DNA of 64,000 nt from Balanoglossus misakiensis (taxonomy: Eukaryota; Animalia; Hemichordata), in contig CM082597.2 of the NCBI GenBank assembly GCA_040954595.2, forward strand, positions 574,759 to 638,758, in the 5' to 3' direction. Position 1 is the first letter of the stretch, and every line of letters begins with the position of its first letter. Below, piece after piece: positions 25,465-50,900 of this stretch. The position numbers were made by a program, and so were the translations under genes. Under the pieces are notes generated by a model. The model was not told the DNA's origin, made no database searches, and saw only the letters and a program-made list of their open reading frames with translations.

Positions 25465-26886
25465 TTAGGGATTACGAGTGATGGTAGCAGCATACTGGTA
25501 GCTGCCAACATAATCTTGGACAGTTGGGTCGTAGTCTCCACCCCAGTCGACAAGGAGAACGTAGATGTGTTGATAGGCAGCCGTAGTAGTCGGCAAGATG
25601 ACCGTGTTTATTAGCAGTTGGCTAGGGTTGCTCTTTACGACATTAGGGTTGTCTACTTCACAGGGCAGTTTATCACAGATGTACTGAGTGTACGAGCTTA
25701 TTCCGTCAGTTCCGAAAACCTGTGATGTGATGGAGTAACGGTCGGTTGTTTCTTTGTTGGGGCAGAAGGACACATTGAGAATGGCCTCGTCTTGGTACCT
25801 AAGCCTTTCTTCCTTAATCACATGGATAATCTCTTGGAGATAGATTAAGTCATCGTTCAGCATGTCAGCAGTTGCCATGGCAGCAGGATTTCGTATAGGC
25901 TTGTTTTCTTGCATCATGCCATTAGTCTGAGAATGTGAAAAAACAATACAACTTCATGGGATTTGGCGACCTAGGCGAGCAATAAAAATCCAATATGGCC
26001 GACAGAATTTCAAGATGGCGGATGTCTTCAATGGGAGTTTATATGCAAAATTGAAGGTAGGTCATATTGAAACTTTATTTATGGTTTTAACCTTACACAA
26101 ACACACAGACATCGGTATTTATTGGAGGAATTCATAAACACATACCTGGCCAGTTGCAATAAACTGGACATTTACACTGAAGGAAATTCCAGTGACGTCA
26201 CCAGCCTGTGTCACTACATACAGGTCACTTGTGGAGTTCCATTTCTTAACCAGACAGTTTGGGACAGCTGCATTAGTTCCACCGTCATTAGAGCACAGGG
26301 CTTGTGATTTGGGCTAAGGGGGGGGGGGACAAAAATAAAGAGGAAGGTGCTTGTTAATTTTAGTTGTTACCATAGGCAGGGAAAGATTCTTGCCTTGTCT
26401 GTGTATGCTAGCCTTCCCGAACCATCTTCCACCCCCCCCCCCCCAAATAAAATCCACCCAACCCCACAGAAAACAAATGGTTATCCCCTTATGATTGAAA
26501 TGAGTCGCCCAGCTTACCTTTTTCAGGTCATCAACTACATAGAAATACACGACACCTGCCGCCACCTTCCATCTCGGATTGCTGGTGAGAAGCACGGTCA
26601 CATTGACTTCATCACCGATGAATTGTTTACAAGTAGTCGCTACAAAAGTCTGTACCTGATTTGGGTTTGGAAACTGTACTTCGTTGGTGACGTATCTTGT
26701 GCCAACTTCAACTTGAATAGGGTCATTTGGAGCGAAGACGGTGTATGATTGTGCAGAGTGGACTATAAATAAAAATATGAAAAATAATTGTCTATTGGTC
26801 ATAGAAATACATTCTAAGCAATAATTTACATATGGTGTGTACTTACCAATTAATACAAAAAGTGCAAAGACAATCTTGAGTTCCAT
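25465..26886 (-). CDS. Secreted uncharacterised protein, paralog A (304 aa, 4 exons)
   Basis: Exons 26886-26847, 26762-26518, 26313-26146, 25926-25465 (TAA), GT-AG, phases 1/0/0. Signal peptide MELKIVFALFVLIVHSAQS. Collinear similarity to paralog B. Confidence 0.85.
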
Positions 26887-28976
26887 TCTGAAAGGTGTTG
26901 TGAGCAATGGGATGACTGAACACTTTGCAGGATGGGGTGACTATCAGAAGTATCCGCACAATTGGGGAAGGAACGAATATCCGTCTGTTATATATGCTCT
27001 AGTCAAGAGGCATCAATCATTCTTTATCGTGGGATATTGGCATCGAATAAAATGATAACGCGTAAACGCCTCCAGGAAGTCTGGATCAGAGTCCATCTGC
27101 AGGATGCAGTTCACAAAAACGAAAGCTTGGTATTTAGAACAAAAAATACAGAGACAAAAGAGGAAGGTTTTTAAGTAACTTCCTTAAAGCCCTATGAGCT
27201 GCTACTATTAGCATCTTTATCCTTCACCGACGGCGACACTATTTTGAATCCATTTAGATGTCTCCAGTTTGAGAAAAAACAGTATCTATCTACATTGCAA
27301 TGATTAACCGTACACACCTTGCAAAAAATCTGCCAAAGTTCAATTGCCTACTTGGACTTTATCATCTGCAATGACTAATGCAATGTACAGGGAAAACATG
27401 ATCGACCTTAACACACATGTGTTTGATAATTTGGTAAAGATAAATCGCTTTCGATTCTATCTTTCTTTTTCTTAATTCTACTCGTCAATGACTATCGTCG
27501 TTAGCATTGTGTCCGTACTGCTGGACTCAAATGGTCATTTGATGGATTGAATTTGACCTGCAGGTCGTGTACACGGAAGGAAACTGGACTACTTTTAAAT
27601 AGATTTTGGTAGCTTGGCAACATAAGGCACTAATGAGTATACACTTTGTGATATCTATAGAATATTTATGAGCTTTTCGTCAAGGGTGTTTGGTCGCTAG
27701 AATTTTCTGTGTGATTATTTGCAATTTTGCATTTTCTGATAATTCGTGTTTCATTTGTACTTATCTGGGAACATTATATCGTCAACAGATATCAAAGACA
27801 AATGTTTTAGACACATTATACATTTAGCAGCCTAGAGACATAAGCTCTAACTTTTGACTTTATTTTCAGGTATTTTTGTTCCTTGTACCAACTGCGATGT
27901 CTGGTTCTACTCCAATCAACATGCTGATGGGCCTATATCCAGTACTCTGCTTGTCAAGATAGCTTAAATGTGAGTAACCGCCATTTTTGTTGTTAACAAA
28001 TGAATTCTAGTCCGGACTTGAATTCAAAGTTTGCACAATATTAAACAGTGCTAACTATACTACTAGTAGTATATACGTATAGGTTGTGTTAACAAGCCGG
28101 ATACTAGGCATTTCCCCATACTTCAAGGATTTGAACAAAAACAGGCAGTAGACAGGCATATAACAAAAAAAAAACGGAAAATATAGGGAAAGGTTACACC
28201 TAGTTATGCTAATGTAGTAAGTGTAAGGTGAATGAGAGTTCATGCATGGGGGATTCGTGTGACCGAGAAAACAGGCGTAAACAGACCACTTGTCTGCCAG
28301 CAATTTGACAAACCTGGGTGATAGATTACAGGAATGGTATTTGACATAGCGACACAGGATTGAACTGTTTGACAAGCTCAGTCCAACAGACCAGCAAGTC
28401 CATTATTTAAATGTGAAAATACGCAAATCCATCTGTCCAGACACCAACTAAGGGAACAAAACTAGGAAGGCACGCGTGTGGATTAGTTTAGCGTACTGTT
28501 TATTTCTACGAATTCTTCAAATAATCCAGTTACAATTTTCCTTAAAAGTGTATAACAATGCAGAGTAAGACTTTATGGATAGACAGATACTACTAATAAC
28601 AGTTCGTACTGTATCAAAACCAATTCTCACTACTTTAAACAGGTTTAAGCCACCTAGGTGAGTGATAAAAATCTCGGCAGAATTTCAAGATGGCGGATTT
28701 CCGCCATGTTTAATAAATTGGAGACAACACTTGCAGAAATAATCGAAAAAAATCAACCCTTTAAACTCTTAAGTCTACAGTTAGTCGTCAACTTTTCTAC
28801 CCACAATGCAATCATTATAATGTGATTTGATCATCTAACACGAAGTAAAAACCTAGTATCTTGCCGCGTTTTGTTCGCTTTGCTTCCAAAACTTCTATGC
28901 TACCTAAGATATAATCACTTTTATCGCGCTGAATTTGACAGAGAAAGTCAGATCTCCTGCGATTGCTTTCAGACAT

Positions 28977-31272
28977 TTATTTTGGTCTGATAGTGCCGGT
29001 ATACTGGTAGTTGCACTCATAAGCTTTCTTGGCTGGGTTGAAACTACCACCCCAGCAGGTTAGGAGGACGTACAGACGTTGGTACTGGGCGTGTTGTGTA
29101 GTAACGTCTACGACGTTGCTAGGCAACTGGTTCCCGTTGTAGGCGATCACATGAGAGCCCTCTACGGTACAGTCGGCTTGATCGCAGATGTGTTGAGTGA
29201 AAGCGCTGATGTCGTCGGTTCCGAAGACGACCGATCGAATCATGTAATCGTCAGTTGTTTCTTTGTTGGCACAGAAGGAGACTTCGAGAATCACCTGTTC
29301 TTGGTAGAGCAGTTGCTCAGTTGTTGAGGTCTCAGCAATCTCGGATAAGTAATATATATCTTCGTTTGCTTTGGGGAAGTGAATATTCGGGTTTCTCATC
29401 AAGGCAGAGCTTTCTTTGATGTAGTAATATTCCTACAAATTCAAAATAATCAACAAGAAATAATAAACATTATATGATGGATGAATTGTTAGAAAACGGA
29501 GCACGGTGATATTGGCCACAGTGGAGTGACTGTGGTGAGGCTATCAACGATAACTTCGTTTATTTTGCGCAGAACACGACAAATGTTCAAATGTCAGTCC
29601 TGACAAGATTGTTGTTAACAATGCAAATCGAAACTTATAATAATAATATGATACAATGATGACACACACGCATATAAACAGTCCTCTCAAACATCATTAC
29701 TAGTATCAACTTACGTCGAACTTGGGCTTGGGATTGAATTGTACGTTGACCGTGAACGAGACAGCTGATATCCTGCCTGCAGTGGTGACGATGAAGAGGT
29801 CTTTGGTGGAGTTCCAATTTGATACGTTACAGAACGGAACTGCTGTCTGTCCAGCTGGATGATTGTGACAAAGTGCTGCCGTTTCGCTCTGAAAACGTAA
29901 TGTATATACATGTAGTTGACATACGGTCCTGCATGGAGGGACCCTGGTCGTGGTCTGTTAGTCTGTTCCCCAGCCCATCCCCTCCCCTGGCTGCATAGGG
30001 ATCAGACTGGTGATCTGTCTCCATTGTGAAGCTTCAGTCTCAGTCTCAGTATCTCACTTTTTAATCAAATGGGTCGTGCAGTGCAAAGCGTGTCAAGTTT
30101 TTTTCGGTCAGTCAATCAAAAAAGGGTTAAGCTTGATTGTATTTGCTATGCATAGTCTACGATGTGACACGCCGATTTCAATAAAGTCTGGGTCGGAGGT
30201 CACAATATGAAGTATGTCTTGAAGGCACCATATTATTCTATACACGTACAACACGTACAGACTGTAGGCCAACTGTTCAGTGGGCCCTGTTTGGACACTG
30301 GTATTTTTTCGATCTGATAAGATTGTTTCTCACCTTCTTAGCGTCATCCACGACGTAAAAGTAGACAACTCCTTTCACGGGGTTCCATTCTGGGTTGTTG
30401 TTCAGAAGTATAGTGATGGTGACAGAACTGCCGATGAATTGACCACACGTAGTTGCGGCAAAAACTTGCTGCTGTTCAGCTAGGACAGTTTTAACAGAAC
30501 GCGTGACGTAACGAGTTCCAATCTCAATGGTCTTTGTTCCAAAAGAGCCAGATATGGCTGAAAACGAAAACGGAAAACTTTAATTTATTTTCGTTTTAAT
30601 TGCCATGGTCAGAAATTCTCAGAAAGCTGTGCCAAGGACATAAAGTTAATATATAACTGAATGACCAACATTAGAAATTGGCCACATGTCTGTGGCCACG
30701 CAGCTGTGGAATTTTACCCGCCCCCTCCGCGCACCTGTTTTTTTTTAAACCGCCGTTGCGAGTTTGAGATGAATGAAACTTTCTGTGTGAGAATACGACG
30801 CGAGAGTTCGCCAAATTGGCCGGGCTTCAAAACGTGCGGCGCGAGACTCATACCAAATTGGCCGGGGCTTCTTTCGGTTGTTATACTGAACAATGGGTAC
30901 TAATTTTTTACAAGTTGTTAGCATTGCTCTAAGACTTTTACTACCATGATAAATCATCAGTTCTTACGAAGGAATTAACTCTGATCATAGCATGACATAT
31001 CTGCTTCTGAACAGCAGTTACTCAAGCGTGATTACAGCACAAAACTGAAGCTGTCAAATTACAGTAGAAAGAAAGATAGAAAGGGAACGCATGTCTTGGT
31101 TAAATGTTAAATGGGCGTGTCCTTAGCAAGTAACTTGTTCGTTTTCTAAAAAGTTAAAGATTTGTGAAAAACAGCACAAGACGACAAATATGTCTTGAAA
31201 AATAGGAAGAACTAGAAGTTACAACTTACCACAGAACAGAAGAAGGACGATAGCATTAAGAAAATTGGCCAT
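28977..31272 (-). CDS. Secreted uncharacterised protein, paralog B (298 aa, 4 exons)
   Basis: Exons 31272-31230, 30557-30334, 29888-29715, 29432-28977 (TAA), with the same phases as paralog A. Signal peptide MANFLNAIVLLLFCAISGSFG. Shared motifs GTRYVT, ATTCxQFIG, GVVYFYVVDD, WNSTxDL, VSFCxNKETTD, VFGTDxIS and YVLLxxWGG. Confidence 0.85.
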
Positions 31273-35161: not shown

Positions 35162-35355
35162 GATTGGCTATCGGCCAATTAATTCATTGCTGCAATTTTC
35201 AGCTCTCTCTCACGTGCATGTCATTCCAAACGTTTACCTTTTCCTCCTCATGGAAATGAAATATCCGTTTCCTCTTCAAACTTTGTCTGCTCGGCGGGGA
35301 TCTCGATAAACAAAACAGCGGCGCGATTCTCTTCAAGAGAGAAGCGACTATAAAA
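35162..35355 (+). promoter_or_regulatory. Putative promoter of the lectin-GH9 gene (CCAAT pair and TATA box)
   Basis: GATTGG...GCCAAT at 35162-35179 and TATAAAA at 35349-35355, ~60 nt upstream of ATG 35412. Confidence 0.5.
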
Positions 35356-35411: not shown

Positions 35412-38400
35412 ATGTCGCGACGCGGTGTCGCGCTTTCACTCCTGCTTTGGAGTTTCATCATTATCGGAATCTCTGCATCTAGTTTGTCTGTAAGTATTTA
35501 CAGATATTAAAGTCTTCGTGTTTCTCTTTTGAAGGCACTTATCAGTTTCCACACATAATGTCACAAAATCTTTTCTAACGTGGCTTGATCGAGGAAAAAA
35601 TATTTTTTTCATTGGATTTCAGAAAGATGGAGATTTGGGGGAAAGCAAAGCCCGAAACATCAGACAGACAGAAGGTGAGTCTGAATTTCAAATTATTATT
35701 GAAATCATTAATTTTGTATCAAAGGAATGGGTGAATGGAAGTAAATTTGCTGCAAAGTTACCAGGAATTTTAGAGGACCTTTACCATTGTGTTTGAAACA
35801 ATTTGTTCTGTCATTCAAATTATTTGCATTGTGACTCCCCCATAATTTTATTCTTAATTTTAAGAGAGAGAGTGATCTAAAGTTGCCATGTGCAAAATTC
35901 GAGAACATGTTTAAAACTTGGATTTTCGAGGCGAGTACTAACCTTAATTATTAAACCCCGATTCTCTTGTGTGTTGAAGCTTCCACTACAACGTACTTCT
36001 ACACGTATATCGACGATACCTCAATGACATGGGAAGACGCTAATTATTACTGCCAAGATCGATGGGGGAAAGTTCTCAGCATACCAGATGTTGAAACTCA
36101 AAACTACATCGTTGACTGGATCGCCGTTCAAAACATAACCGGACCAATTTACCTCGGTATTGAAAGGAAACCAGAAAGCAGTGGTTGGCAGTTTTTCAAC
36201 GGGACTGATGTTTTGCACGACAGTTGGGCAAAAGGGGAACCAAACGACAACACGACCAGTTGTGCTGTTATCAGGTAAGAAAAATAAAATATGACGGGAA
36301 AGTAAGATGATGAAAAAGTGACACAAACGTTTATACTCAGCCCTCTTTTATTATTTGCAATGTCTTTCTATAATGTAAACGTTGTACATTGCACACATTA
36401 AGTGCTGTTTGTTATGGCGTTTCATCACAGCGTTAGGTTCAACAATTTTGTTTTAAAATAAAATAAAATTCACTATTTGCTTTTAAGACCAAGCGTTGAA
36501 CAAATGCATTCTTCACGAAATGTTTTCACAACCGATCGGAGGCACGAATCAAATAAATGGAACACTTCGCTCTTGTGAGGTACCGCCGGTAAATCACGTT
36601 TCTGATCAATCTAACTTTATGTTGGCGACAAAGTGGCATTTGCATATTTAGTTTTTCCGGATTTGCATACTGGTAAATTTTTCCACAAACAAAACCAGCT
36701 GTTTTTACACTATTGTTCACTGTATCCCAGAGTGTGACCGATAAAAATGCAAACGTGAACACATTCTGCAGTTACGTAAAATAATATGCAAATTATTATT
36801 GACTGATATCGATTTCTTGGATCATAGTATTCATGCTCCTGTTAGGGGCGGGCCGACGAGGATTGGATGGGAAAACGTTGTCACCCTTATCACACTTACT
36901 TGACCCTCTCTGAAAGTAATGGTATAGCCCGAGGTAGTGAGTTGGTCGGTCTTCAGATCTCCAACATGCAGGATTTTACATACAAACATGTTTCCGTTGT
37001 GAAATGCCTTTGTCGGATATTCAAATGATTAGAAAAATGACTATATGAAAATTAATTTCGCAAGAAAAGCAAGAAAGTTGATTGGAGTTTTGTGCGGCTA
37101 CCTATAGCTGTGTGTAATATAGCTTGTGTGAAATTTCACCATATGGACCGGATGGCTGGAGTTCCTGTGCATTTGCACTGCAACTTGTCAATCATCTGGA
37201 GAGGTGAGCTCAACTGTGAAACAAATTGAGCTTTGCATTGCGAAGGGTGAAACTACTTTACGCACACAGCATGTGCCTATTCAGTGAAACGAACAGCTCT
37301 GTAATGGTAACCGTGGCGATCTTAATAGCGAGCTCGTGTTTCAGAGTTTCATCGACAGATTGACATACTGGGACCGTGATGCGTACATAGACGTGTCATT
37401 ATCAGAAATGTTTTTTTTTTCATCCACTCTTTATTCACAGTGCCGACCATGGTTACTTCAATTGGACCAACTACAACTGCAGTGGTGGAGCCGCGTTTAT
37501 TTGTCAATATGGTGAGTCGAGTTCTGAGAACACAACGTTGACTAGTAGGCCGCCCTCTGAAAGATTCAGCATTTTCATAGGGGCGGACAAGTCTCTCATT
37601 GCATAATATGTAATGGAATGGTATCGTCTTCTTTGGTACAATACACATTGTGTGTTCCTAACCATATTGCTTTATTATGCTCTGTCATTGACGGAATGCT
37701 CAAGAATTTGCGGTTGGTACACCGCTTTTTTCGAAGCAAAGCCAAGCTGAGATGATAGCTTATAGGGTTGATATTTTGACGTTTTGTTGCAGACTGCAAA
37801 CGCGACCCTTTTTGGTGTGTCCGTGGCGAAGTCGTCCATACTGCAGATACCTGTAGCTGTGACTGTGATAACAGATGGGGTGGACCACTGTGCGACGGTT
37901 AGTAAAATAGCTGTTTCCCGCTTATTGCGAGATCTCGCGAGACTTGGTTTATTACCGTAGCATTGGGTTGGTACTCAAGTTTTGTATGCAACTGCAACCG
38001 CTGCAGAGATTAACAAAAAGTAACTTTTCTGTCATTGGGCCATGTTTTGTTTGTCCCGTGTCACGTGAGAATGTCTTCCATATGACTTCCTAGCCACGCA
38101 AAGTCTCGGAGGGTCTCGTGAAGTTCGGAAAGTGGCCAATTTTTATTCTTCATGAAAAAAACGAGCGGCACTAAAATCCAGTATAGCCATACTGTGAAGG
38201 TACACTCCGGTCGTCAGTATGTTTCTCTGGACTCCGTTTGCGATAATTAAAACTCTTTTCTGCATCCAGAAATAACTCTGTTTGTGAAACCCCTGTACGA
38301 AATGGGAATCGGAAAAGCGTCGTACTTCGAGGCCGAACAGTTCTGTGAAGACAAAAGAACTACTGTACCGAGTGTGCGTACTTTTCAGTTATGGAAAGCG

Positions 38401-39057
38401 TTGAAAGACTTTGTTGCTAAGAGAGCCTCGCTATTGGACAAGCTGATTTATGTTGACTTGCGATTGGTTAACGGCGTGTGGGCGGACAGCGCTGGGAATG
38501 TTCCAGAAATTTCAAAATGGCTGAGCGGAGAGCCTCAGTCTGGCGAGGAATGCGCCGTCATTAGGTATGTTGGCAGATTGGAAGACATTTATATGAAGTG
38601 TCACAACGCTCCTTCTGTGAATTTATTGTGAAGTATATCGTTTAACGAGGTTGTTAAGAAAATCCCGATAAACTCTCTCAAAATGATAAATCGTTTATTT
38701 TGATAGTTATATGTCTGCCATATTGCGCATGACGTCACTGTGAAAGAATCGCAACGAAAATTGGAAGAGCAATAATATATTACGATCTAAACTCTTAAAA
38801 CTAACGCAGCTTTCAAATAAATTAACTGTAATAAATTATTTTCTCTTATGGTTTTCGGGTCGATGTAATAAATATGCTTTTGTACGCGATTGTCGATTGA
38901 TGCATTTTCGAATGATTGCTTGTTAATGGTGTTTTTTTCCTTGTCACACAAATCATTAGCCCTGCGGACTCGTACAGATGGATATCCGTTAACTGCTCGG
39001 ACGAAAACAAGTTCATGTGTGAATTCCGTGAGTTATCAACTATTTATTCTGTCAGCT

Positions 39058-39145
<88 letters not shown>

Positions 39146-42100
39146 TGTGTGATTTCACCTTTCACTTAATCCTGTGTTCTTCACATGCTGCATTCTTTTC
39201 CACAGAATGTAACAAAGGTTATGAAAATTGGTGTATCCATGGTGACATCTTTGTCAAATTAGGCGGCGCTTGTGATTGCCAGTGTTGGCCTGGTTCATAC
39301 GGCGAGAGATGTGAAGGTAAGAGATATAAAGTACACACAAACTATGAAACATATTGAATAGTATAGTTGGCGAGTGTAGAACGGACTAAACCAATATGAT
39401 AAACTCCAACCCATACGTTATTCATATTCAATCATTAATACTACACTCTGCCTTAACGTCCCAGAATATGATTATGATGACGTCATCAACAAGACAATCC
39501 TGTTTTATGAGACCCAACGATCTGGGATGATATCTCAAGACAATCGAATTTCCTGGAGAGGTGATTCTGCATTGGGGGATATGGGTTACCATGGTGAAGA
39601 TCTCACTGGTGGTTGGTATGATGGTAAGATGATGATCATTATTCCTGACGTCACATTCCGACAAAAGATGAAAACAAGGTGTTCGCCATCTTGTTTTAAG
39701 TGTGAACACAGAGATTGGCAGCCATTTTGAATTTCCAATTTTGAGACAATTTGCTTTCTTATTCAAAACATACTACCTTAAATTTACTTCTATCCCTTTT
39801 TATAGCTGGAGACCACATCAAAGTCACTTTCAAGCACACTGCCAGTGTGTGGAAACTGGCATGGGCGTTTCTAGAATTCAAAGACGCTTATGACTTGGCT
39901 GGTCAGACCCAGAATTTCTACAAATCTCTGAAATGGGGAAATGACTACACTATGAAACTACACACCAACAGAAACATCAACTCAACAGTGTTTTACGTGC
40001 ACGTGAGTGAATTGTTATTCCAACACAATAACGAATATTCAGTTTTATTCATGTTTTAGAACATTTATTCATTGATGAAATCATCAGATTACATGAGTGT
40101 ATACAACCGATCAAATGCATGACGGTGATAAACTAACGGCAATATTTACTGTTTCAGGTTGCTGATCCAGGACTTGATCACTCTTACTGGGGTAGACCAG
40201 AACAGATGATGATGTCACGACCTGCCTATCCATCCAATACAACTCACCCTGCTACAGAAGTGGCGGGAAATGGAGCCGCATCTCTTGCTGCATCTTATCT
40301 GGTCTTCAAGGATCACGGTATGTCTTCAAGTCAAAGATCACTTTTATACACTTGAACAACCAAGATTTTCATTGTGTCCACACGTATTTTCATGTATTAT
40401 TGCATTCAATATTAGGAGAGAACCATTTGTTTTCTTGGGGGTGGTCGAGGGTTTGGGTAGGTCAGCAACTTTTCAGGCACTGATAAAGACGTTTTCTTCT
40501 TATTGTCAGTCGTAATATTTTCAAAGCATTGCAGAAGAAAATTGTTTATCCCTCTTCACCATCTGCTATCAATTCCCCCAACCCTCCACCCCAGAAATGA
40601 AATGGTTCTCCCCTTACGTTATTTTCTATTAACGTGCTGATGCAGATCCAACGTACGCCGCAGAATTACTGAGCCATGCCAGAGAATTGTACGAATTTGC
40701 CAACCAGTTCCGCGGTACGGTGGAAGAAAATATTCCAGAACTGGATTTTCTGTAAGTGTAGATATTGGATATTCATGTAATGTACATGTTAATTGCACAG
40801 GGACTGTAATAAAGTGACCAATATATAGAGGTGGCTACTAACATCATTTTAGCCCATGAATATTCATGTATAATTTTAAGTAAAGAAATCAAGACATGAA
40901 AGCCCTAAATCTAAATTTGGTAATTGAACTTTTCCTACTTAGGAGCGGTTCATATGGAGACGAACTCACCAACGCTGCATTGTGGCTGTACATAGCAACC
41001 AATGAAACAGCTTATCTAGATGCAGCTAAATCCTTCTATGTGGAATTCGGTCTTCACAAAGTTGATGCTTTGTTTACTAGAAACCGAATAGACATCGCCC
41101 TCCAGGTAAGATATAGCAATTACATATGTTACCAACTCTCAATGTTTTTATGCTTATCCGTTAAAAGTATAGAAGATAGCAAGAATAGTTTCAATGACAC
41201 TAAAGTAATGCCTTCGTGTGTGGTCTGCCGAATAGGTAAAGATGTATCTGGTAACTGGTGATTCACAGTATTTAACACCGTTCACGGAAGGTCTGGCTAA
41301 ATGGGGCAGAAGCCAGATAACATACACACGCAAAGGACTGGCTATGTATACATGGAACCGATCAATGAAAAGAGCCGGTACGTCAGCATTCACTGTTTTT
41401 ATGTCGCCAGTGTTATTATCATATCAACATCCGCGCAAATTGATTTAAGGTTGCTGCCATACGTAGACGTAACAGTAACTTGTGATAGTCTAGAGGTGGC
41501 CACTAACACAGATTTGACTGTATGTGTTAATGTGGTATATTTTTAGCCGACATCAGCTTCCTGGCGCTAATTGCCGCCAAGCATGGTATCCAAACTGAGG
41601 AGTACTTTGAATTCGCTCGAAGTCAAATCCATTACATGCTAGGAGACGGCGGAAGAAGTTACTTAACTGGGTTTGGAAGATATCCACCCGTACGTCCACA
41701 CCACAGAGGCAGGTGAGTGCCCCTCTACGTCCAAATCAAATATCTACATTGGGTCATTTGTCCGGTAGAAGAGCTATGATTAGTTCCTGAGCTATTAAGT
41801 GTTTCGTAAACCTTCAACAGTATAGGTGAACGCCTCCATCTATGACCACTTCATATAAACTGACTGTCTAACTGTTTGTTTGTTGTATGTCTGTCTGTCT
41901 GTCTGTCCTCAATGACATTGAACTCCGTGTGTTGGCTATTTTCTCTACTTCACACGTCCACTGTACACCATTCTAAACTCCATTTTACAATGTTTACAGT
42001 TCTTGTCCGAACTTACCGTTGCCATGCGGCAAAGATGAGCGCAACTCACCTTATCCAAGTCCTCAAACACTGTACGGTGGATTGGTCGGCGGGCCCGACG

Positions 42101-42383
42101 ATCGAGACAATTTCTTCGATGAACGACGTAATTGGGAACAAAACGAGGCTGGAGTAAACGTCGCTGCTTTTCAAGGAGCTGTAGCAGGTATGATGTTTTT
42201 TAAATTTTGTTAGATAGTATGCATTTGCGCGTATGTGTATGACTGACTGACTGAATGAATGAATGAATGAATGTATGTGTGTGTGTGTGTCACTCAAATA
42301 TTTAAATTTCACATAATTATTGAAATCCACCTTTGTCCATTTTCTCAGGTTTATCCTATTTCCGGTTACAAGAAACCACATAG
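35412..42383 (+). CDS. Secreted C-type lectin-EGF-C-type lectin-EGF-GH9 (endo-beta-1,4-glucanase family) protein, 796 aa, 17 exons
   Basis: GT-AG exons with continuous frame: 35412-35489, 35623-35674, 35980-36274, 37441-37511, 37793-37897, 38270-38564, 38960-39027, 39206-39316, 39465-39623, 39806-40002, 40158-40317, 40646-40751, 40943-41105, 41236-41377, 41547-41712, 42000-42187, 42349-42383 (TAG); 2391 nt. GH9 motifs: ILFYETQRSG, WRGDSAL, DLTGGWYDAGD, DHSYWGRPE, YGDEL, SQIHYMLGDGGRSYLTGFG, PHHRGSSCP, LYGGLVGGPD...QNE. Confidence 0.9.
35980..37897 (+). CDS. C-type lectin domain 1 plus EGF-like domain 1
   Basis: MTWEDANYYC...IYLG...W..GEPND...CAVI|SADHGYFNWTNYNCSGGAAFICQ, followed by the six-Cys CKRDPFWCVRG...CSCDCDNRWGGPLCD. 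Confidence 0.88.
38270..39316 (+). CDS. C-type lectin domain 2 plus EGF-like domain 2
   Basis: ASYFEAEQFC...IYVDL...WLSGEPQSGEECAVI|SPADSYRWISVNCSDENKFMCE, followed by CNKGYENWCIHG...CDCQCWPGSYGERCE. Confidence 0.88.
39062..39151. repeat. (GT)n/(GCGT)n microsatellite in an intron
   Basis: Directly visible in the sequence. Confidence 0.95.
39465..42383 (+). CDS. Glycoside hydrolase family 9 catalytic domain
   Basis: DAGD catalytic-base motif spans the 39623/39806 junction; HHR motif present; catalytic acid Glu in EQNEA in exon 42000-42187. Confidence 0.93.
40412..40616. mobile_element. ~200-bp PIF/Harbinger (Tourist)-like MITE in a GH9 intron
   Basis: TTA|GGAGAGAACCATTT ... AAATGGTTCTCCCC|TTA: terminal inverted repeats flanked by a 3-bp TTA target-site duplication. 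Confidence 0.65.
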
Positions 42384-42696: not shown

Positions 42697-42702
42697 AATA
42701 AA
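42697..42702 (+). terminator. Candidate polyadenylation signal of the lectin-GH9 gene
   Basis: AATAAA ~315 nt after the stop codon and ~130 nt before the satellite starts. Confidence 0.4.
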
Positions 42703-43620: not shown

Positions 43621-46600
43621 CTTTTCTTTTCATGAGCTATAACCCATGGTTTTTATCAAAAAACGATCAAATTTTGAAATTTCGCGAGGTCGAAAAATTG
43701 ACATTTCTGGATGATTTTCATGAGCTATAACCCATGGTTTTTTATCAAAAAACCACCAAATTTTGAAAATTCGCGAGGTCGAAAAATTGACATTTCTGGA
43801 TGATTTTCATGAGCTATAACCCATGGTTTTTTTCAAAAAACCACCAAATTTTGAAAATTCGCGAGGTCGAAAAATTGACATTTCTGGATGATTTTCATGA
43901 GCTATAACCCATGGTTTTTGTCGAAAAACCACCAAATTTTGAAATTTCGCGAAGTCGAAAAATTGACATTTCTGGATGATTTTCATGAGCTATAACCCAT
44001 GGTTTTTGTCGAAAAACCACCAAATTTTGAAATTTCGCGAAGTCGAAAAATTGACATTTCTGGATGATTTTCATGAGCTATAACCCATGGTTTTTGTCGA
44101 AAAACCACCAAATTTTGAAATTTCGCGAAGTCGAAAAATTGACATTTCTGGATGATTTTCATGAGCTATAACCCATGGTTTTTGTCGAAAAACCACCAAA
44201 TTTTGAAATTTCGCGAAGTCGAAAAATTGACATTTCTGGATGATTTTCATGAGCTATAACCCATGGTTTTTGTCGAAAAACCACCAAATTTTGAAATTTC
44301 GCGAAGTCGAAAAATTGACATTTCTGGATGATTTTCATGAGCTATAACCCATGGTTTTTGTCGAAAAACCACCAAATTTTGAAATTTCGCGAAGTCGAAA
44401 AATTGACATTTCTGGAAGATTTTCATGAGCTATAACCCATGGTTTTTGTCGAAAAACCACCAAATTTTGAAATTTCGCGAAGTCGAAAAATTGACATTTC
44501 TGGATGATTTTCATGAGCTATAACCCATGGTTTTTGTCGAAAAACCACCAAATTTTGAAATTTCGCGAAGTCGAAAAATTGACATTTCTGGATGATTTTC
44601 ATGAGCTATAACCCATGGTTTTTGTCGAAAAACCACCAAATTTTGAAATTTCGCGAAGTCGAAAAATTGACATTTCTGGATGATTTTCATGAGCTATAAC
44701 CCATGGTTTTTGTCGAAAAACCACCAAATTTTGAAATTTCGCGAAGTCGAAAAATTGACATTTCTGGATGATTTTCATGAGCTATAACCCATGGTTTTTG
44801 TCGAAAAACCACCAAATTTTGAAATTTCGCGAAGTCGAAAAATTGACATTTCTGGATGATTTTCATGAGCTATAACCCATGGTTTTTGTCGAAAAACCAC
44901 CAAATTTTGAAATTTCGCGAAGTCGAAAAATTGACATTTCTGGATGATTTTCATGAGCTATAACCCATGGTTTTTGTCGAAAAACCACCAAATTTTGAAA
45001 TTTCGCGAAGTCGAAAAATTGACATTTCTGGATGATTTTCATGAGCTATAACCCATGGTTTTTGTCGAAAAACCACCAAATTTTGAAATTTCGCGAAGTC
45101 GAAAAATTGACATTTCTGGATGATTTTCATGAGCTATAACCCATGGTTTTTGTCGAAAAACCACCAAATTTTGAAATTTCGCGAAGTCGAAAAATTGACA
45201 TTTCTGGATGATTTTCATGAGCTATAACCCATGGTTTTTGTCGAAAAACCACCAAATTTTGAAATTTCGCGAAGTCGAAAAATTGACATTTCTGGATGAT
45301 TTTCATGAGCTATAACCCATGGTTTTTGTCGAAAAACCACCAAATTTTGAAATTTCGCGAAGTCGAAAAATTGACATTTCTGGATGATTTTCATGAGCTA
45401 TAACCCATGGTTTTTGTCGAAAAACCACCAAATTTTGAAATTTCGCGAAGTCGAAAAATTGACATTTCTGGATGATTTTCATGAGCTATAACCCATGGTT
45501 TTTGTCGAAAAACCACCAAATTTTGAAATTTCGCGAAGTCGAAAAATTGACATTTCTGGATGATTTTCATGAGCTATAACCCATGGTTTTTGTCGAAAAA
45601 CCACCAAATTTTGAAATTTCGCGAAGTCGAAAAATTGACATTTCTGGATGATTTTCATGAGCTATAACCCATGGTTTTTGTCGAAAAACCACCAAATTTT
45701 GAAATTTCGCGAAGTCGAAAAATTGACATTCTGGATGATTTTCATGAGCTATAACCCATGGTTTTTGTCGAAAACCACCAAATTTTGAAATTTCGCGAAG
45801 TCGAAAAATTGACATTTCTGGATGATTTTCATGAGCTATAACCCATGGTTTTTGTCGAAAAACCACCAAATTTTGAAATTTCGCGAAGTCGAAAAATTGA
45901 CATTTCTGGATGATTTTCATGAGCTATAACCCATGGTTTTTGTCGAAAAACCACCAAATTTGAAATTTCGCGAAGTCGAAAAATTGACATTTCTGGATGA
46001 TTTTCATGAGCTATAACCCATGGTTTTTGTCGAAAAACCACCAAATTTTGAAATTTCGCGAAGTCGAAAAATTGACATTTCTGGATGATTTTCATGAGCT
46101 ATAACCCATGGTTTTTGTCGAAAAACCATCAAATTTTGAAATTTCGCGAAGTCGAAAAATTGACATTTCTGGATGATTTTCATGAGCTATAACCCATGGT
46201 TTTTGTCGAAAAACCACCAAATTTTGAAATTTCGCGAAGTCGAAAAATTGACATTTCTGGATGATTTTCATGAGCTATAACCCATGGTTTTTGTCGAAAA
46301 ACCACCAAATTTTGAAATTTCGCGAAGTCGAAAAATTGACATTTCTGGATGATTTTCATGAGCTATAACCCATGGTTTTTGTCGAAAAACCACCAAATTT
46401 TGAAATTTCGCGAAGTCGAAAAATTGACATTTCTGGATGATTTTCATGAGCTATAACCCATGGTTTTTGTCGAAAAACCACCAAATTTTGAAATTTCGCG
46501 AAGTCGAAAAATTGACATTTCTGGATGATTTTCATGAGCTATAACCCATGGTTTTTGTCGAAAAACCACTAAATTTTGAAATTTCGCGAAGTCGAAAATT

Positions 46601-49600
46601 GACATTTCTGGATGATTTTCATGAGCTATAACCCATGGTTTTTGTCGAAAAACCACCAAATTTTGAAATTTCGCGAAGTCGAAAAATTGACATTTCTGGA
46701 TGATTTTCATGAGCTATAACCCATGGTTTTTGTCGAAAAACCACCAAATTTTGAAATTTCGCGAAGTCGAAAAATTGACATTTCTGGATGATTTTCATGA
46801 GCTATAACCCATGGTTTTTGTCGAAAAACCACCAAATTTTGAATTTCGCGAAGTCGAAAAATTGACATTTCTGGATGATTTTCATGAGCTATAACCCATG
46901 GTTTTTGTCGAAAAACCACCAAATTTTGAAATTTCGCGAAGTCGAAAAATTGACATTTCTGGATGATTTTCATGAGCTATAACCCATGGTTTTTGTCGAA
47001 AAACCACCAAATTTTGAAATTTCGCGAAGTCGAAAAATTGACATTTCTGGATGATTTTCATGAGCTATAACCCATGGTTTTTGTCGAAAAACCACCAAAT
47101 TGTGAAATTTCGCGAAGTCGAAAAATTGACATTTCTGGATGATTTTCATGAGCTATAACCCATGGTTTTTGTCGAAAAACCACCAAATTGTGAAATTTCG
47201 CGAAGTCGAAAAATTGACATTTCTGGATGATTTTTCATGAGCTATAACCATGGTTTTTGTCGAAAAACCACCAAATTTTGAAATTTCGCGAAGTCGAAAA
47301 TTGACATTTCTGGATGATTTTCATGAGCTATAACCCATGGTTTTTGTCGAAAAACCACCAAATTTTGAAATTTCGCGAAGTCGAAAAATTGACATTTCTG
47401 GATGATTTTCATGAGCTATAACCCATGGTTTTTGTCGAAAACCACCAAATTTTGAAATTTCGCGAAGTCGAAAAATTGACATTTCTGGATGATTTTCATG
47501 AGCTATAACCCATGGTTTTTGTCGAAAAACCACCAAATTTTGAAATTTTGCGAAGTCGAAAAAATTGACATTTCTGGATGATTTTCATGAGCTATAACCC
47601 ATGGTTTTTGTCGAAAAACCACCAAATTTTGAAATTTCGCGAAGTCGAAAAATTGACATTTCTGGATGATTTTCATGAGCTATAACCCATGGTTTTTGTC
47701 GAAAAACCACCAAATTTTGAAATTTCGCGAAGTCGAAAAATTGACATTTCTGGATGATTTTCATGAGCTATAACCCATGGTTTTTGTCGAAAAACCACCA
47801 AAATTTTGAAATTTCGCGAAGTCGAAAAATTGACATTTCTGGATGATTTTCATGAGCTATAACCCATGGTTTTTGTCGAAAAACACCAAATTTTGAAATT
47901 TCGCGAAGTCGAAAAATTGACATTTCTGGATGATTTTCCTGAGCTATACCCATGGGTTTTTTGTCGAAAAACCACCAAATTTTGAAATTTCGCGAAGTCG
48001 AAAAATTGACATTTCTGGATGATTTTCATGAGCTATAACCCATGGTTTTTGTCGAAAAACCACCAAATTTTGAAATTTCGCGAAGTCGAAAAATTGACAT
48101 TTCTGGATGATTTTCATGAGCTATAACACATGGTTTTTGTCGAAAAGCCACCAAATTTTGAAATTTCGCGAAGTCGAAAAATTGACATTTCTGGATGATT
48201 TTCATGAGCTATAACCCATGGTTTTTGTCGAAAAACCACCAAATTTTGAAATTTCGCGAAGTCGAAAAATTGACATTTCTGGATGATTTTCATGAGCTAT
48301 AACCCATGGTTTTTGTCGAAAAACCACCAAATTTTGAAATTTCGCGAAGTCGAAAAATTGACATTTCTGGATGATTTTCATGAGCTATAACCCATGGTTT
48401 TTGTCGAAAACCACAAATTTGAAATTTCGCGAAGTCGAACAATTGACATTTCTGGATGATTTTCATGAGCAATAACACATGGTTTTTGTCGAAAAACCAC
48501 CAAATTTTGAAATTTCGCGAAGTCGAAAATTGACATTTCTGGATGATTTTCATGAGCTATAACCCATGGTTTTTGTCGAAAAACCACCAAATTTTGAAAT
48601 TTCGCGAAGTCGAAAAATTGACATTTCTGGATGATTTTCATGAGCTATAACCCATGGTTTTTGTCGAAAAACCACCAAATTTTGAAATTTCGCGAAGTCG
48701 AAAAATTGACATTTCTGGATGATTTTCATGAGCAATAACCCATGGTTTTTGTCGAAAAACCACCAAATTTTGAAATTTCGCGAAGTCGAAAAATTGACAT
48801 TTCTGGATGATTTTCATGAGCTATAACCATGGTTTTTGTCGAAAAACCACCAAATTTTGAAATTTCGCAAAGTCGAAAAATTGACATTTCTGGATGATTT
48901 TCATGAGCTATAACCATGGGTTTTTGTCGAAAAACCACCAAATTTTGAAATTTCGCGAAGTCGAAAAATTGACATTTCTGGATGATTTCATGAGCTATAA
49001 CCCATGGTTTTTGTCGAAAAACCACCAAATTTTGAAATTTCGCGAAGTCGAAAATTGACATTTCTGGATGATTTTCATGAGCTATAACCCATGGTTTTTG
49101 TCGAAAAACCACCAAATTTTGAAATTTCGCGAAGTCGAAAAATTGACATTTCTGGATGATTTTCATGAGCTATAACCCATGTTTTTGTCGAAAAACCACC
49201 AAATTTTGAAATTTCGCGAAGTCGAAAAATTGACATTTCTGGATGATTTTCATGAGCTATAACCCATGGTTTTTGTCGAAAAACCACCAAATTTTGAAAT
49301 TTCGCGAAGTCGAAAAATTGACATTTCTGGATGATTTTCCTGAGCTATAACCCATGGTTTTTGTCGAAAAACCACCAAATTTTGAAATTTCGCGAAGTCG
49401 AAAAATTGACATTTCTGGATGATTTTCATGAGCTATAACCCATGGTTTTTGTCGAAAACCACCAAATTTGAAATTTCGCGAAGTCGAAAAATTGACATTT
49501 CTGGATGATTTTCATGAGCTATAACACATGGTTTTTGTCGAAAAGCCACCAAATTTTGAATTTCGCGAAGTCGAAAAATTGACATTTCTGGATGATTTTC

Positions 49601-50900
49601 ATGAGCTATAACCCATGGTTTTTGTCGAAAAACCACCAAATTTTGAAATTTCGCGAAGTCGAAAAATTGACATTTCTGGATGATTTTCATGAGCTATAAC
49701 CCATGGTTTTTGTCGAAAAACCACCAAATTTTGAAATTTCGCGAAGTCGAAAAATTGACATTTCTGGATGATTTTCATGAGCTATAACCCATGGTTTTTG
49801 TCGAAAAACCACCAAATTTTGAAATTTCGCGAAGTCGAACAATTGACATTTCTGGATGATTTTCATGAGCAATAACACATGGTTTTTGTCGAAAAACCAC
49901 CAAATTTTGAAATTTCGCGAAGTCGAAAAATTGACATTTCTGGATGATTTTCATGAGGCTATAACCCATGGTTTTTGTCGAAAAACCACCAAATTTTGAA
50001 ATTTCGCGAAGTCGAAAAATTGACATTTCTGGATGATTTTCATGAGCTATAACCCATGGTTTTTGTCGAAAAACCACCAAATTTTGAAATTTCGCGAAGT
50101 CGAAAAATTGACATTTCTGGATGATTTTCATGAGCTATAACCCATGGTTTTGTCGAAAAACCACCAAATTTTGAAATTTCGCGAAGTCGAAAAATTGACA
50201 TTTCTGGATGATTTTCATGAGCTATAACCCATGGTTTTTGTCGAAAAACCACCAAATTTTGAAATTTCGCAAAGTCGAAAAAATTGACATTTCTGGATGA
50301 TTTTCATGAGCTATAACCCATGGTTTTTGTCGAAAAACCACCAAATTTTGAAATTTCGCGAAGTCGAAAAATTGACATTTCTGGATGATTTTCATGAGCT
50401 ATAACCCATGGTTTTTGTCGAAAAACACCAATTTTGAAATTTCGCGAAGTTGAAAAATTTGACATTTCTGGATGATTTTCATGAGCTATAACCCATGGTT
50501 TTTGTCGAAAAACCACCAAATTTTGAAATTTCGCGAAGTCGAAAATTGACATTTCTGGATGATTTTCATGAGCTATAACCCATGGTTTTTGTCGAAAAAC
50601 CACCAAATTTTGAAATTTCGCGAAGTCGAAAAATTGACATTTCTGGATGATTTTCATGAGCTATAACCCATGGTTTTGTCGAAAAACCACCAAATTTTGA
50701 AATTTCGCGAAGTCGAAAAATTGACATTTCTGGATGATTTTCATGAGCTATAACCCATGGTTTTGTCGAAAAACCACCAAATTGTGAAATTCGCGAAGTC
50801 GAAAATTGACATTCCTGGATGATTTTCCTGAGCTATAACCCATGGTTTTTGTCGAAAAACCACCAATTTTGAAATTTCGCGAAGTCGAAAAATTGACATT
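43621..50900. repeat. 88-bp tandem satellite, orientation A (~83 monomers)
   Basis: Unit CATGAGCTATAACCCATGGTTTTTGTCGAAAAACCACCAAATTTTGAAATTTCGCGAAGTCGAAAAATTGACATTTCTGGATGATTTT. The same register recurs at 43921 and 45241 (1320 = 15 x 88). Confidence 0.97.

What the first reader, a model, noticed from the sequence alone, without database searches (positions are those of the whole stretch)
35412..42383. Endogenous animal GH9 (cellulase-family) enzyme fused to two C-type lectin-EGF modules
Seen: 17 phase-consistent exons form one 796-aa ORF reading signal peptide, CTL, EGF, CTL, EGF, complete GH9, with no transmembrane segment. The EGF2/GH9 junction (39316|39465) is a 148-nt phase-1 intron, and I see no separate signal-peptide exon for the GH9. 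Established: animal GH9s (termite, crayfish, abalone, sea urchin) are usually a bare catalytic domain or carry a CBM2-like module, while CTL domains are metazoan glycan or pattern-recognition modules. Inference: exon shuffling recruited a metazoan lectin as the targeting module of a glycanase. This could anchor the enzyme to food particles or mucus, or couple microbial recognition to beta-glucan hydrolysis. I do not know a characterised protein with this architecture, but cannot exclude that it exists among automated annotations.
Basis: partly seen in the sequence, partly recalled or inferred. Interest (0 to 1): 0.88.

Follow-up and report, generated by a model that had tools for sequence, protein, structure and literature searches.

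The report
Acorn-worm cellulase relative with charged groove
This gene, likely from an acorn worm, joins two lectin-like modules to a cellulase-family enzyme that keeps its catalytic residues but has swapped the cellulose-gripping aromatic residues of its predicted sugar groove for positively charged ones, so it likely cuts a negatively charged polysaccharide rather than cellulose.

Summary
Seventeen GT-AG exons give one 796-aa frame: signal peptide, (C-type lectin-like domain + EGF) x2, GH9. The fusion is not unique. A collinear Ptychodera flava protein (XP_070551254.1) is 73% identical over 780 aa, and relatives occur in three acorn-worm families, mostly annotated 'uncharacterized'. None was seen outside acorn worms, and my searches found no paper on it. 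Catalytic Asp411/Asp414/Glu772 and the +1 clamp are intact, but the glycone-side cellulose-binding residues are replaced (Trp to Arg612, Trp to Asn661, Tyr to Arg666, Tyr to Val777), with new Lys421, Arg614 and Arg662. Net charge at eight such positions is +6, against -2 to +2 in 285 other GH9 domains, while whole-domain charge is ordinary. The pattern is shared by Ptychodera and Glandiceps paralogues. Best reading: a secreted inverting hydrolase retargeted to a uronic-acid or sulfated beta-glycan (about 55%). Neither lectin-like domain has a full EPN+WND site, so lectin targeting is unproven. There is no RNA or activity evidence. Verdict: new GH9 variant, interest 0.63.

The parts
35349..35355 (+). 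TATAAAA, TATA-like box about 60 nt upstream of the ATG
   Evidence: read; a stricter 8-letter consensus did not match; function untested
35412..35489 (+). exon 1, signal peptide (aa 1-26)
   Evidence: hydropathy peak at residues 1-11 starts; no signal-peptide predictor was run
35623..35674 (+). exon 2, short linker (aa 27-44)
   Evidence: aligns to the same region of P0125; pLDDT under 50 in the homologue model
35980..36274 (+). exon 3, CTLD1 first part (aa 44-142), holds EPN at 130-132
   Evidence: Pfam Lectin_C E 4.9e-9; best PDB hits are mannose-receptor-family CTLDs
37441..37511 (+). exon 4, CTLD1 end (aa 142-166); WTN at 150-152 where WND is canonical
37793..37897 (+). exon 5, EGF-like 1 (aa 166-201), phase 1-1
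   Evidence: 6-Cys pattern; 31 of 35 identical to P0125; no Pfam EGF hit
38270..38564 (+). exon 6, CTLD2 first part (aa 201-299), EPQ in place of EPN
   Evidence: Pfam Lectin_C E 1.3e-4; same 295-nt length as exon 3
38960..39027 (+). exon 7, CTLD2 end (aa 299-322); WIS in place of WND
39206..39316 (+). exon 8, EGF-like 2 (aa 322-359), phase 1-1, abuts GH9 with no linker
   Evidence: Pfam EGF_C8A_B_C6 E 2.8e-4, below cut-off; junction conserved in 11 of 12 rows
39465..39623 (+). exon 9, GH9 start (aa 359-412), catalytic Asp411
   Evidence: Pfam GH9 E 4e-14; mapping
39806..40002 (+). exon 10, GH9 (aa 412-477): Asp414; remodelled Val418, Lys421, His422; 4-residue insertion not seen in the homologues aligned
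40158..40317 (+). exon 11, GH9 (aa 478-531): kept His485, Trp488; Asn515 replaces a conserved acid
40646..40751 (+). exon 12, GH9 (aa 531-566): Phe565 replaces the near-invariant Tyr (EF-EG2 Tyr226)
40943..41105 (+). exon 13, GH9 (aa 566-620): Ca ligands Asp572/Glu573 kept; Arg612, Asn613, Arg614 replace Trp-Asp-Asp/Glu
41236..41377 (+). exon 14, GH9 (aa 621-668): Asn661, Arg662, Lys665, Arg666 replace Trp, Gly, Arg, Tyr
   Evidence: no Pfam GH9 hit on its own
41547..41712 (+). exon 15, GH9 (aa 668-723): kept His719, Arg721
42000..42187 (+). exon 16, GH9 (aa 723-786): catalytic acid Glu772, Trp768; Asn776/Val777 and a one-residue deletion replace the Asp-Tyr-Asn motif
42349..42383 (+). exon 17, last helix end and stop (aa 786-796)
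   Evidence: aligns to homologue C-termini
42697..42702 (+). AATAAA, candidate polyadenylation signal
   Evidence: only such signal in the 820 nt searched after the stop

Best explanation
This is one 17-exon gene, likely of an acorn worm, encoding a predicted secreted (CTLD-EGF)2-GH9 protein whose catalytic acids are intact and whose predicted glycone-side groove carries lysines and arginines in place of the cellulose-binding aromatics, so it likely hydrolyses a negatively charged (uronic-acid or sulfated) beta-linked polysaccharide rather than cellulose. Steps. (1) Shown: gene structure, domain order, intact Asp411/Asp414/Glu772, His485/Trp768 clamp and Ca ligands, and the substitutions. (2) Inferred from alignment to solved GH9s: the substitutions line subsites -1 to -4, where Lys421, Arg612, Arg614, Arg662, Lys665 and Arg666 would pair with carboxylates or sulfates, and the Tyr-to-Val777 change would make room near -1. 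(3) Inferred from family knowledge: single-displacement (inverting) cleavage, likely endo. (4) Weakest, inferred from ecology: it acts in the feeding mucus or gut on algal or microbial acidic polysaccharides in swallowed sediment (beta-1,4-glucuronan, ulvan-like or xanthan-like polymers), while the CTLD-EGF units, fused without a linker, act as a stiff arm that holds it on particles or mucus, CTLD1 possibly through a degenerate Ca site.
For: Catalytic and +1 residues are listed for earthworm EF-EG2 (PMC3795549) and CelR (PMC10149213; numbering checked by hand on the 7unp alignment). All are kept in the window protein, while Trp270, Trp320, Tyr325, Tyr436 and Tyr226 are changed. Net charge at eight minus-side positions is +6 in the window and in 7 other family rows, versus -2 to +2 in 285 other GH9 domains (173 at -1). 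Aromatics at four positions: 0 of 4 in the 9 derived rows, 4 of 4 in 248 of 285 others and never 0. Whole-domain charge is -12, equal to the median of the others, so the charge is local. An unbiased column scan gave 195 conserved columns, of which 19 switch class in all 8 derived genes; 4 become invariant K/R and none becomes acidic. 10 columns gain invariant K/R against 1 gaining D/E (under 10% in others). The pattern is shared by P. flava and Glandiceps talaboti, two families, which argues for selection rather than decay. The AlphaFold model of P0125 has pLDDT 89.1 and superposes on EF-EG2 at 1.2 A over 433-435 columns, so the residue mapping is sound. GH9 already has non-cellulase members: exo-glucosaminidase (PMC6096475), and xanthanase structures match the model (their GH9 membership is recalled).
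Against: No activity, expression or transcript data. The eight positions for the charge count were picked after seeing the alignment; one search is the unbiased check, but its 8 derived rows are relatives, not independent events. I could not inspect side chains or electrostatics of the model. The 285 comparison domains are top hits of three searches, not a random sample. Charge logic does not always predict GH9 specificity: PMC6096475 found no structural rationale for glucosamine preference in VC0615. Losing Tyr226, Tyr325 and Tyr436 next to the base could cut catalytic rate (own knowledge). Basal family members (P0053, P0214) have the fusion without the basic groove (+1), so fusion and retargeting are separate events. 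A rigid arm rests on pTM 0.87 in one predictor; the Atlas model of the same protein has pTM 0.64.
Confidence: 0.55

Rival explanations
1. One reading: a cellulase or neutral beta-glucan/hemicellulose hydrolase that uses C-type lectin modules instead of CBM2 for targeting.
For: GH9 fold and all catalytic residues kept. RefSeq names truncated paralogues 'endoglucanase-like'. CTLD1 keeps EPN, and bivalve lectins with EPN plus variant WxD still bind sugar in a Ca-dependent way (PMC12842671 table).
Against: The -2 stacking Trp, the -2 hydrogen-bonding Trp and the -4 Asp pair are gone. None of 285 other domains has lost all four aromatics. Acorn worms keep many canonical GH9 paralogues that could do the cellulose job (16 rows in a separate clade).
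Confidence: 0.17
2. Non-catalytic or barely catalytic polyanion-binding protein (pseudo-enzyme) of mucus or extracellular matrix, with the barrel acting as a lectin.
For: Residues flanking the base are altered (Phe565, Arg666, Val777). One family member, P0139, has Asn at the second catalytic Asp. The associated reprolysin-like domains lack an intact zinc motif in 3 of 3 proteins.
Against: Asp/Asp/Glu, the +1 clamp and the Ca ligands are intact in 11 of 12 family rows.
Confidence: 0.12
3. An immune or self-remodelling role instead of digestion: the same anionic-glycan chemistry aimed at bacterial capsules or biofilm, or at the worm's own acidic mucus or glycosaminoglycans. This competes with step 4 of the best explanation only, and its probability overlaps with it.
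For: Invertebrate CTLDs are often pattern-recognition modules (PMC12842671). Several paralogues lie on one 50.6-Mb P. flava chromosome, as expected of defence or mucus gene clusters (inference).
Against: No expression data either way; canonical sugar sites are degenerate; molluscan GH9s are mainly expressed in hepatopancreas (PMC7560691).
Confidence: 0.25
4. A hydrolase of some other non-cellulose neutral or branched glycan, or a short-substrate enzyme, with the arginines serving only as hydrogen-bond donors.
For: Arginines commonly bind neutral hydroxyls, as Arg324 does in EF-EG2. GH9 exo-enzymes exist.
Against: Conserved acids were lost at the same time (Glu174 and Asp435 to Asn, Asp/Glu272 to Arg), which fits charge selection. 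No long loop insertion near the minus subsites appears in the alignments.
Confidence: 0.13
5. Two separate genes (a CTLD-EGF gene and a GH9 gene) joined by the gene model.
For: No transcript was seen. Some P. flava models start inside the GH9 (P0122, P0124, P0002), and Saccoglossus models changed between annotation versions (1948 aa versus 734 aa).
Against: 148-nt phase-matched intron with no room for a promoter and signal exon; no stop after EGF2 in the spliced frame; the same Cys-x-x-GH9 junction in 11 of 12 rows from three named species plus the window; 73% collinear identity with P0125.
Confidence: 0.03

Closest known systems
Animal GH9 endoglucanases EF-EG2 (Eisenia fetida, PDB 3WC3/8IHW) and NtEgl (termite, 1KS8)
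   Same: (alpha/alpha)6 barrel, 1.2 A rmsd and 41-46% identity to the P0125 model; Asp/Asp/Glu, +1 clamp, Ca site
   Different: Their cleft is acidic and aromatic (PMC3795549); here the minus side is basic and has lost its aromatics. They have no CTLD-EGF arm.
Acorn-worm 'uncharacterized' RefSeq proteins XP_070551254.1, XP_070551253.1, XP_070551480.1, XP_070551262.1 (P. flava), XP_077985281.1, XP_077985298.1 (G. talaboti), XP_077868348.1 (S. kowalevskii)
   Same: Same architecture and junction; one clade with the window gene (SH-aLRT 99). The P. flava and Glandiceps proteins listed share the basic groove.
   Different: None has a described function in what I found. The Saccoglossus member and P. 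flava XP_070551007.1 lack the basic groove; XP_070555870.1 adds a reprolysin-like domain.
Mollusc, echinoderm and brachiopod CBM2-GH9; bacterial GH9-CBM3c (TfCel9A, CelR)
   Same: GH9 with an appended binding module; CBM3c extends the cleft surface (PMC10149213), a possible parallel to the linker-less EGF2/GH9 joint
   Different: The module here is a metazoan CTLD-EGF tandem, and their clefts are canonical cellulose clefts.
Non-cellulase GH9s: Vibrio/Photobacterium exo-beta-glucosaminidase; multimodular xanthanase (PDB 6FHJ/6FHN)
   Same: Precedent for changed specificity on the GH9 fold, including an anionic polymer (xanthan, recalled)
   Different: Distant from this protein (16% identity to the xanthanase); bacterial; not shown to share this residue pattern.
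Mannose-receptor-family CTLDs and selectin-like CTLD-EGF tandems
   Same: Best PDB matches of CTLD1 are PLA2R, MRC1 and LY75 domains; CTLD followed directly by EGF as in selectins (recalled)
   Different: No full EPN+WND site; the EGF is of the complement C6/C8 spacing type; secreted, not membrane-bound.

Membership tests
Glycoside hydrolase family 9 | Sequence match to the GH9 catalytic domain over its length | tested here: met
   Pfam GH9 on 7 of 8 exons scanned; P0125 378 bits over profile 1-436 of 444, cut-off 27.7
Glycoside hydrolase family 9 | (alpha/alpha)6 barrel | tested here: met
   Tested on the 73%-identical homologue P0125, not the window protein: TM 0.96-0.97 by target and 1.2 A to EF-EG2
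Glycoside hydrolase family 9 | Asp-x-x-Asp base pair and Glu acid | tested here: met
   Asp411, Asp414, Glu772 align to EF-EG2 Asp74, Asp77, Glu431
Glycoside hydrolase family 9 | Inverting hydrolysis of a beta-glycoside | not testable with these tools
   needs enzyme assay and NMR
GH9 cellulases (endo-beta-1,4-glucanases) | Aromatic and acidic cellulose-binding residues at subsites -1 to -4 | tested here: not met
   Arg612, Asn661, Arg666, Val777, Asn613/Arg614, Phe565 (subsites)
GH9 cellulases (endo-beta-1,4-glucanases) | His/Tyr clamp and His/Arg at +1/+2 | tested here: met
   His485, Trp488, His719, Arg721, Trp768 (Tyr to Trp)
GH9 cellulases (endo-beta-1,4-glucanases) | Activity on cellulose | not testable with these tools
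   no assay possible
C-type lectin-like domain | CTLD sequence with four core cysteines | tested here: met
   Pfam Lectin_C above cut-off on exons 3 and 6; Cys68/138/155/163 and Cys226/295/311/319
Ca-dependent C-type lectin (true carbohydrate-recognition domain) | EPN/QPD plus WND calcium site 2 | tested here: inconclusive
   CTLD1 has EPN but WTN; CTLD2 has EPQ and WIS; 0 of 14 family CTLDs have both motifs. Invertebrate lectins with variant motifs can still bind.
Endogenous animal GH9 (not recent bacterial transfer or contamination) | Spliceosomal introns and placement among animal GH9s | tested here: met
   8 introns inside the GH9 part; groups with acorn-worm proteins and away from the clade holding the two bacterial rows (quick tree, deep branches weak)

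The most novel reading that the evidence does not exclude
An acorn-worm GH9 subfamily evolved in two steps, first gaining a CTLD-EGF arm (over 370 million years ago) and then turning the cellulose groove into a polyanion groove. It would be an animal-encoded inverting endo-hydrolase for uronic-acid or sulfated marine polysaccharides (glucuronan, ulvan-like or glycosaminoglycan-like), an activity I know of in no animal GH9.
Probability: 0.42. Interest if true: 0.85.

Novelty: new variant of a known kind. Interest (0 to 1): 0.63.

Why it matters
Animal GH9s are generally annotated as cellulases (for molluscs, PMC7560691). This subfamily shows, in sequence alone, a concerted charge reversal of half the active-site groove with the catalytic machinery kept, and living paralogues mark intermediate states (net +1, +4, +5, +6). 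If it cuts acidic polysaccharides, sediment-feeding animals would have their own enzymes for polymers whose breakdown is usually credited to bacteria (own knowledge). GH9 would gain a new activity, and automated 'endoglucanase' labels on these genes would be wrong. The prediction is cheap to test with one recombinant domain and a glycan panel. If it is only a cellulase, it remains an undescribed lineage-specific lectin-like/glycanase fusion.

Tried and rejected
RNA evidence: no RNA holder listed, so no reads were laid; this is no evidence either way. No assembly is held for the window, so paralogues beyond it are unknown; within the window tblastn found no second copy. A homologue search with the CTLD2 exon alone found nothing among 65 candidates. 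The ESM Atlas gave no feature hit and only GH9 clusters by structure, none listing Lectin_C among the 10 rows shown. Earlier-findings look-ups were empty. Literature: searches (listings and abstract starts only; 30 of 130, 5 of 5 and 20 of 397 papers listed) showed no paper on a C-type lectin-GH9 fusion or on acorn-worm GH9s. Searches (15 of 454, 10 of 10 listed) showed no GH9 acting on uronic or sulfated glycans. Searches found no TfCel9A mutagenesis paper, so -1 subsite roles of Tyr325 and Tyr436 are recalled. One search gave no intron-position paper, so conserved GH9 intron positions were not tested. Subscription papers and supplements (for example Table S3 of PMC12198962, which covers hemichordates) were not read and could list the architecture. 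Whether the CTLD-EGF arm packs rigidly on the barrel stays open: only two single-chain models bear on it and they disagree (pTM 0.87; 0.64). The careful tree did not finish; the quick tree is reported. Rejected by reasoning: phosphorylase (basic pocket for phosphate) and lyase, because both base aspartates and the acid glutamate are kept; recent horizontal transfer, because of the introns and the tree; membrane anchoring, because there is no second hydrophobic segment.
Full report
1. Observation. The EGF2/GH9 intron is 148 nt, phase 1, and closed in all three frames. Pfam on 12 single exons finds Lectin_C on exons 3 and 6, a sub-threshold complement-type EGF on exon 8, and GH9 on 7 of 8 GH9 exons in order. 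Hydropathy shows only the N-terminal signal segment. The two CTLD-EGF units are three-exon cassettes of 295/71/105 and 295/68/111 nt that begin and end in phase 1 and share 37 of 149 aligned residues, so they are an old internal duplication.

2. One gene, and whose. A search with GH9 exon 9 (258 hits, 120 listed) showed 2 listed proteins with Lectin_C plus GH9, both Ptychodera flava. Their cluster members include P0125 (XP_070551254.1, 792 aa), 567 of 780 residues identical to the window model with 5 gap positions; by domain CTLD1 68%, EGF1 89%, CTLD2 67%, EGF2 81%, GH9 77%. Searching with P0125 (1614 hits, 120 listed) showed 7 listed proteins with both domains, from P. flava and Glandiceps talaboti. 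A profile of 9 family members against 1.84 billion representatives (17,398 hits at E 0.001, 150 listed) added Saccoglossus kowalevskii P0214. An HMM of the CTLD-EGF unit hit 15 of the 365 proteins held, all from these three species, which belong to three families of Enteropneusta. The junction is the same in 11 of 12 rows; the twelfth, P0002, is a model that lacks the EGF. The Saccoglossus and Ptychodera lineages split over 370 million years ago (PMC4729200, passages). So the fusion is real, old and, in what I could see, confined to acorn worms; only listed top hits were examined. That the window comes from an acorn worm is inferred from these matches and from the tree.

3. Tree. On 72 GH9 domains (quick IQ-TREE, careful run unfinished) the 12 family rows form one clade (SH-aLRT 99, stem 0.4), among animal GH9s and apart from the clade holding the two bacterial rows. 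The window gene sits with four P. flava rows (100); deep branches are weak. With the remodelled columns removed, 11 family rows of 49 still form one side of a branch (FastTree support 93). Other acorn-worm GH9s form a separate 16-row clade.

4. The active site. EF-EG2's cleft residues are Asp74, Asp77, Glu431, His144, Tyr226, Trp270, Trp320, Arg324, His378 and Tyr427, with Trp270 and Arg324 binding the ligand at about -2 (PMC3795549, part 2 of 3 read). In CelR, His141/Tyr435 clamp +1, Trp330 stacks -2 and Asp278/Asp279 bind -4 (PMC10149213, passages); I checked that numbering by hand on the 7unp alignment. In the window protein the catalytic trio (Asp411, Asp414, Glu772), the +1/+2 set (His485, Trp488, His719, Arg721, Trp768) and the Ca ligands (Asp572, Glu573) are kept. 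The minus side is rebuilt: Trp270 to Arg612, Glu272 to Arg614, Trp320 to Asn661, Gly321 to Arg662, Arg324 to Lys665, Tyr325 to Arg666, Pro84 to Lys421, Met85 to His422, Tyr226 to Phe565, Asp435/Tyr436 to Asn776/Val777. Of 311 full domains in 366 proteins, 14 redundant ones were dropped, leaving 12 family rows and 285 others. Net charge at eight minus-side positions is +6 in 8 family rows including the window, +5 in P0138, +4 in P0139, and +1 in P0214 and P0053; the 285 others range from -2 to +2. K/R at position 270 occurs in 0 of 285 (an earlier alignment of 150 others showed 1). Whole-domain charge of the window protein equals the median of the others, -12. Because those positions were chosen after looking, I scanned all columns: 19 of 195 conserved columns switch class in all 8 derived genes, 4 to invariant K/R, none to D/E; 10 columns gain invariant K/R and 1 gains D/E. 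AlphaFold on P0125 (79-row alignment) gave pLDDT 89.1 and pTM 0.87; Foldseek superposes it on EF-EG2 at 1.2 A, so the backbone is unchanged and the mapping holds. I could not view side chains or surface potential.

5. The lectin-like domains. CTLD1 best matches mannose-receptor-family domains. It keeps EPN (130-132) but has Ser before Cys138 and WTN for WND; CTLD2 has EPQ and WIS; 0 of 14 aligned family CTLDs have both motifs. Bivalve lectins with variant motifs can still bind sugar, some without Ca (PMC12842671, passages), so CTLD1 may be a lectin and CTLD2 probably is not a canonical one. The same unit occurs in up to 7 copies beside a reprolysin-like domain in P0260 and P0358, and P0139 joins reprolysin, two units and GH9. 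The cassette is therefore a mobile acorn-worm module, which fits exon shuffling.

6. How it likely works. Secreted (predicted); the chain binds with its charged residues in a basic -1 to -4 groove (inferred); Glu772 protonates the glycosidic oxygen and Asp411/Asp414 activate water, with inversion (family knowledge, PMC3795549); the CTLD-EGF arm, fused with no linker, holds the enzyme on particles or mucus (inferred, weak). Acorn worms feed on sediment and particles trapped in mucus (recalled), where acidic algal and microbial polysaccharides abound (recalled). I put 0.55 on an anionic-glycan hydrolase, 0.17 on a lectin-targeted cellulase, 0.13 on another neutral glycan, 0.12 on a binding-only protein and 0.03 on two genes. 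Within the anionic reading, a defence or mucus-remodelling role is a serious alternative to digestion.

7. Against. There is no transcript, expression or assay. The derived genes are relatives, so the pattern counts as one origin kept over time. A GH9 with changed specificity, VC0615, showed no structural rationale at -1 (PMC6096475, passages), a warning against reading specificity from residues. The Atlas model of P0125 has pTM 0.64, so rigid packing of the arm is not settled.

8. Known and new. It is a GH9 by sequence, fold and catalytic residues, but it fails the cellulase cleft test. GH9 activities listed in PMC3865294 (passages) are glucanase, cellobiohydrolase, glucosidase and glucosaminidase types; xanthanase structures also match. 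PMC7560691 (passages) treats all molluscan GH9s as endoglucanases; PMC12198962 (passages) mentions hemichordates only in passing and has no 'lectin' in its main text; PMC6032398 (passages) lists the conserved binding residues. Searches showed no description of this fusion or this cleft; subscription papers and supplements were not seen. The architecture exists in RefSeq, mostly as 'uncharacterized', so the fusion alone is a modest novelty. The remodelled groove is the part worth testing. Novelty: new variant of a known kind; interest 0.63.

Noticed in passing
window 25468-26940 (-) and 28980-30579 (-): Two paralogous genes of at least two exons each, 59% and 50% identical in matched exons, with no Pfam hit. 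One begins with a hydrophobic, signal-peptide-like stretch. Possibly lineage-specific secreted proteins; exon boundaries not worked out.
   Followed up: partly
window 20277-20567 (+): Exon with a C1 (phorbol ester/DAG-binding) domain, Pfam E 1.9e-5, just under the cut-off, followed by an Arg/Ser-rich frame at 21072-21506; resembles PDZD8 (recalled, not tested).
   Followed up: partly
window 42823-64000: An 87/88-bp satellite starts about 120 nt after the gene's poly(A) signal and fills the rest of the window. The arrays 43627-50902 (83 copies) and 50913-64000 (150 copies) are about 83% alike and lie in opposite orientation, with a sharp flip near 50905.
   Followed up: partly
P0139 (XP_070555870.1), P0260 (XP_070551727.1), P0358 (XP_006812177.1): Acorn-worm proteins joining CTLD-EGF repeats to a reprolysin-like domain whose zinc motif is broken in all three. 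P0139 also carries a GH9 with Asn at the second catalytic Asp, so it may be a double pseudo-enzyme; four isoforms are annotated.
   Followed up: partly
P. flava chromosome of 50,649,872 bp: At least 11 protein records of this family, several starting inside the GH9 or nearly identical (P0121-P0125), lie on one chromosome, suggesting a recent tandem cluster or incomplete models.
   Followed up: no
window exon 10, near 39970-39995: A 4-residue insertion with an N-glycosylation sequon (Asn470) not present in any of the homologues aligned.
   Followed up: no
P0094, P0218, P0109: Separate GH9 lineages in Glandiceps, Saccoglossus and the urchin Diadema carry classic EGF repeats; P0094 also has a hydrophobic segment near its N-terminus that suggests a type II membrane anchor.
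   Followed up: no
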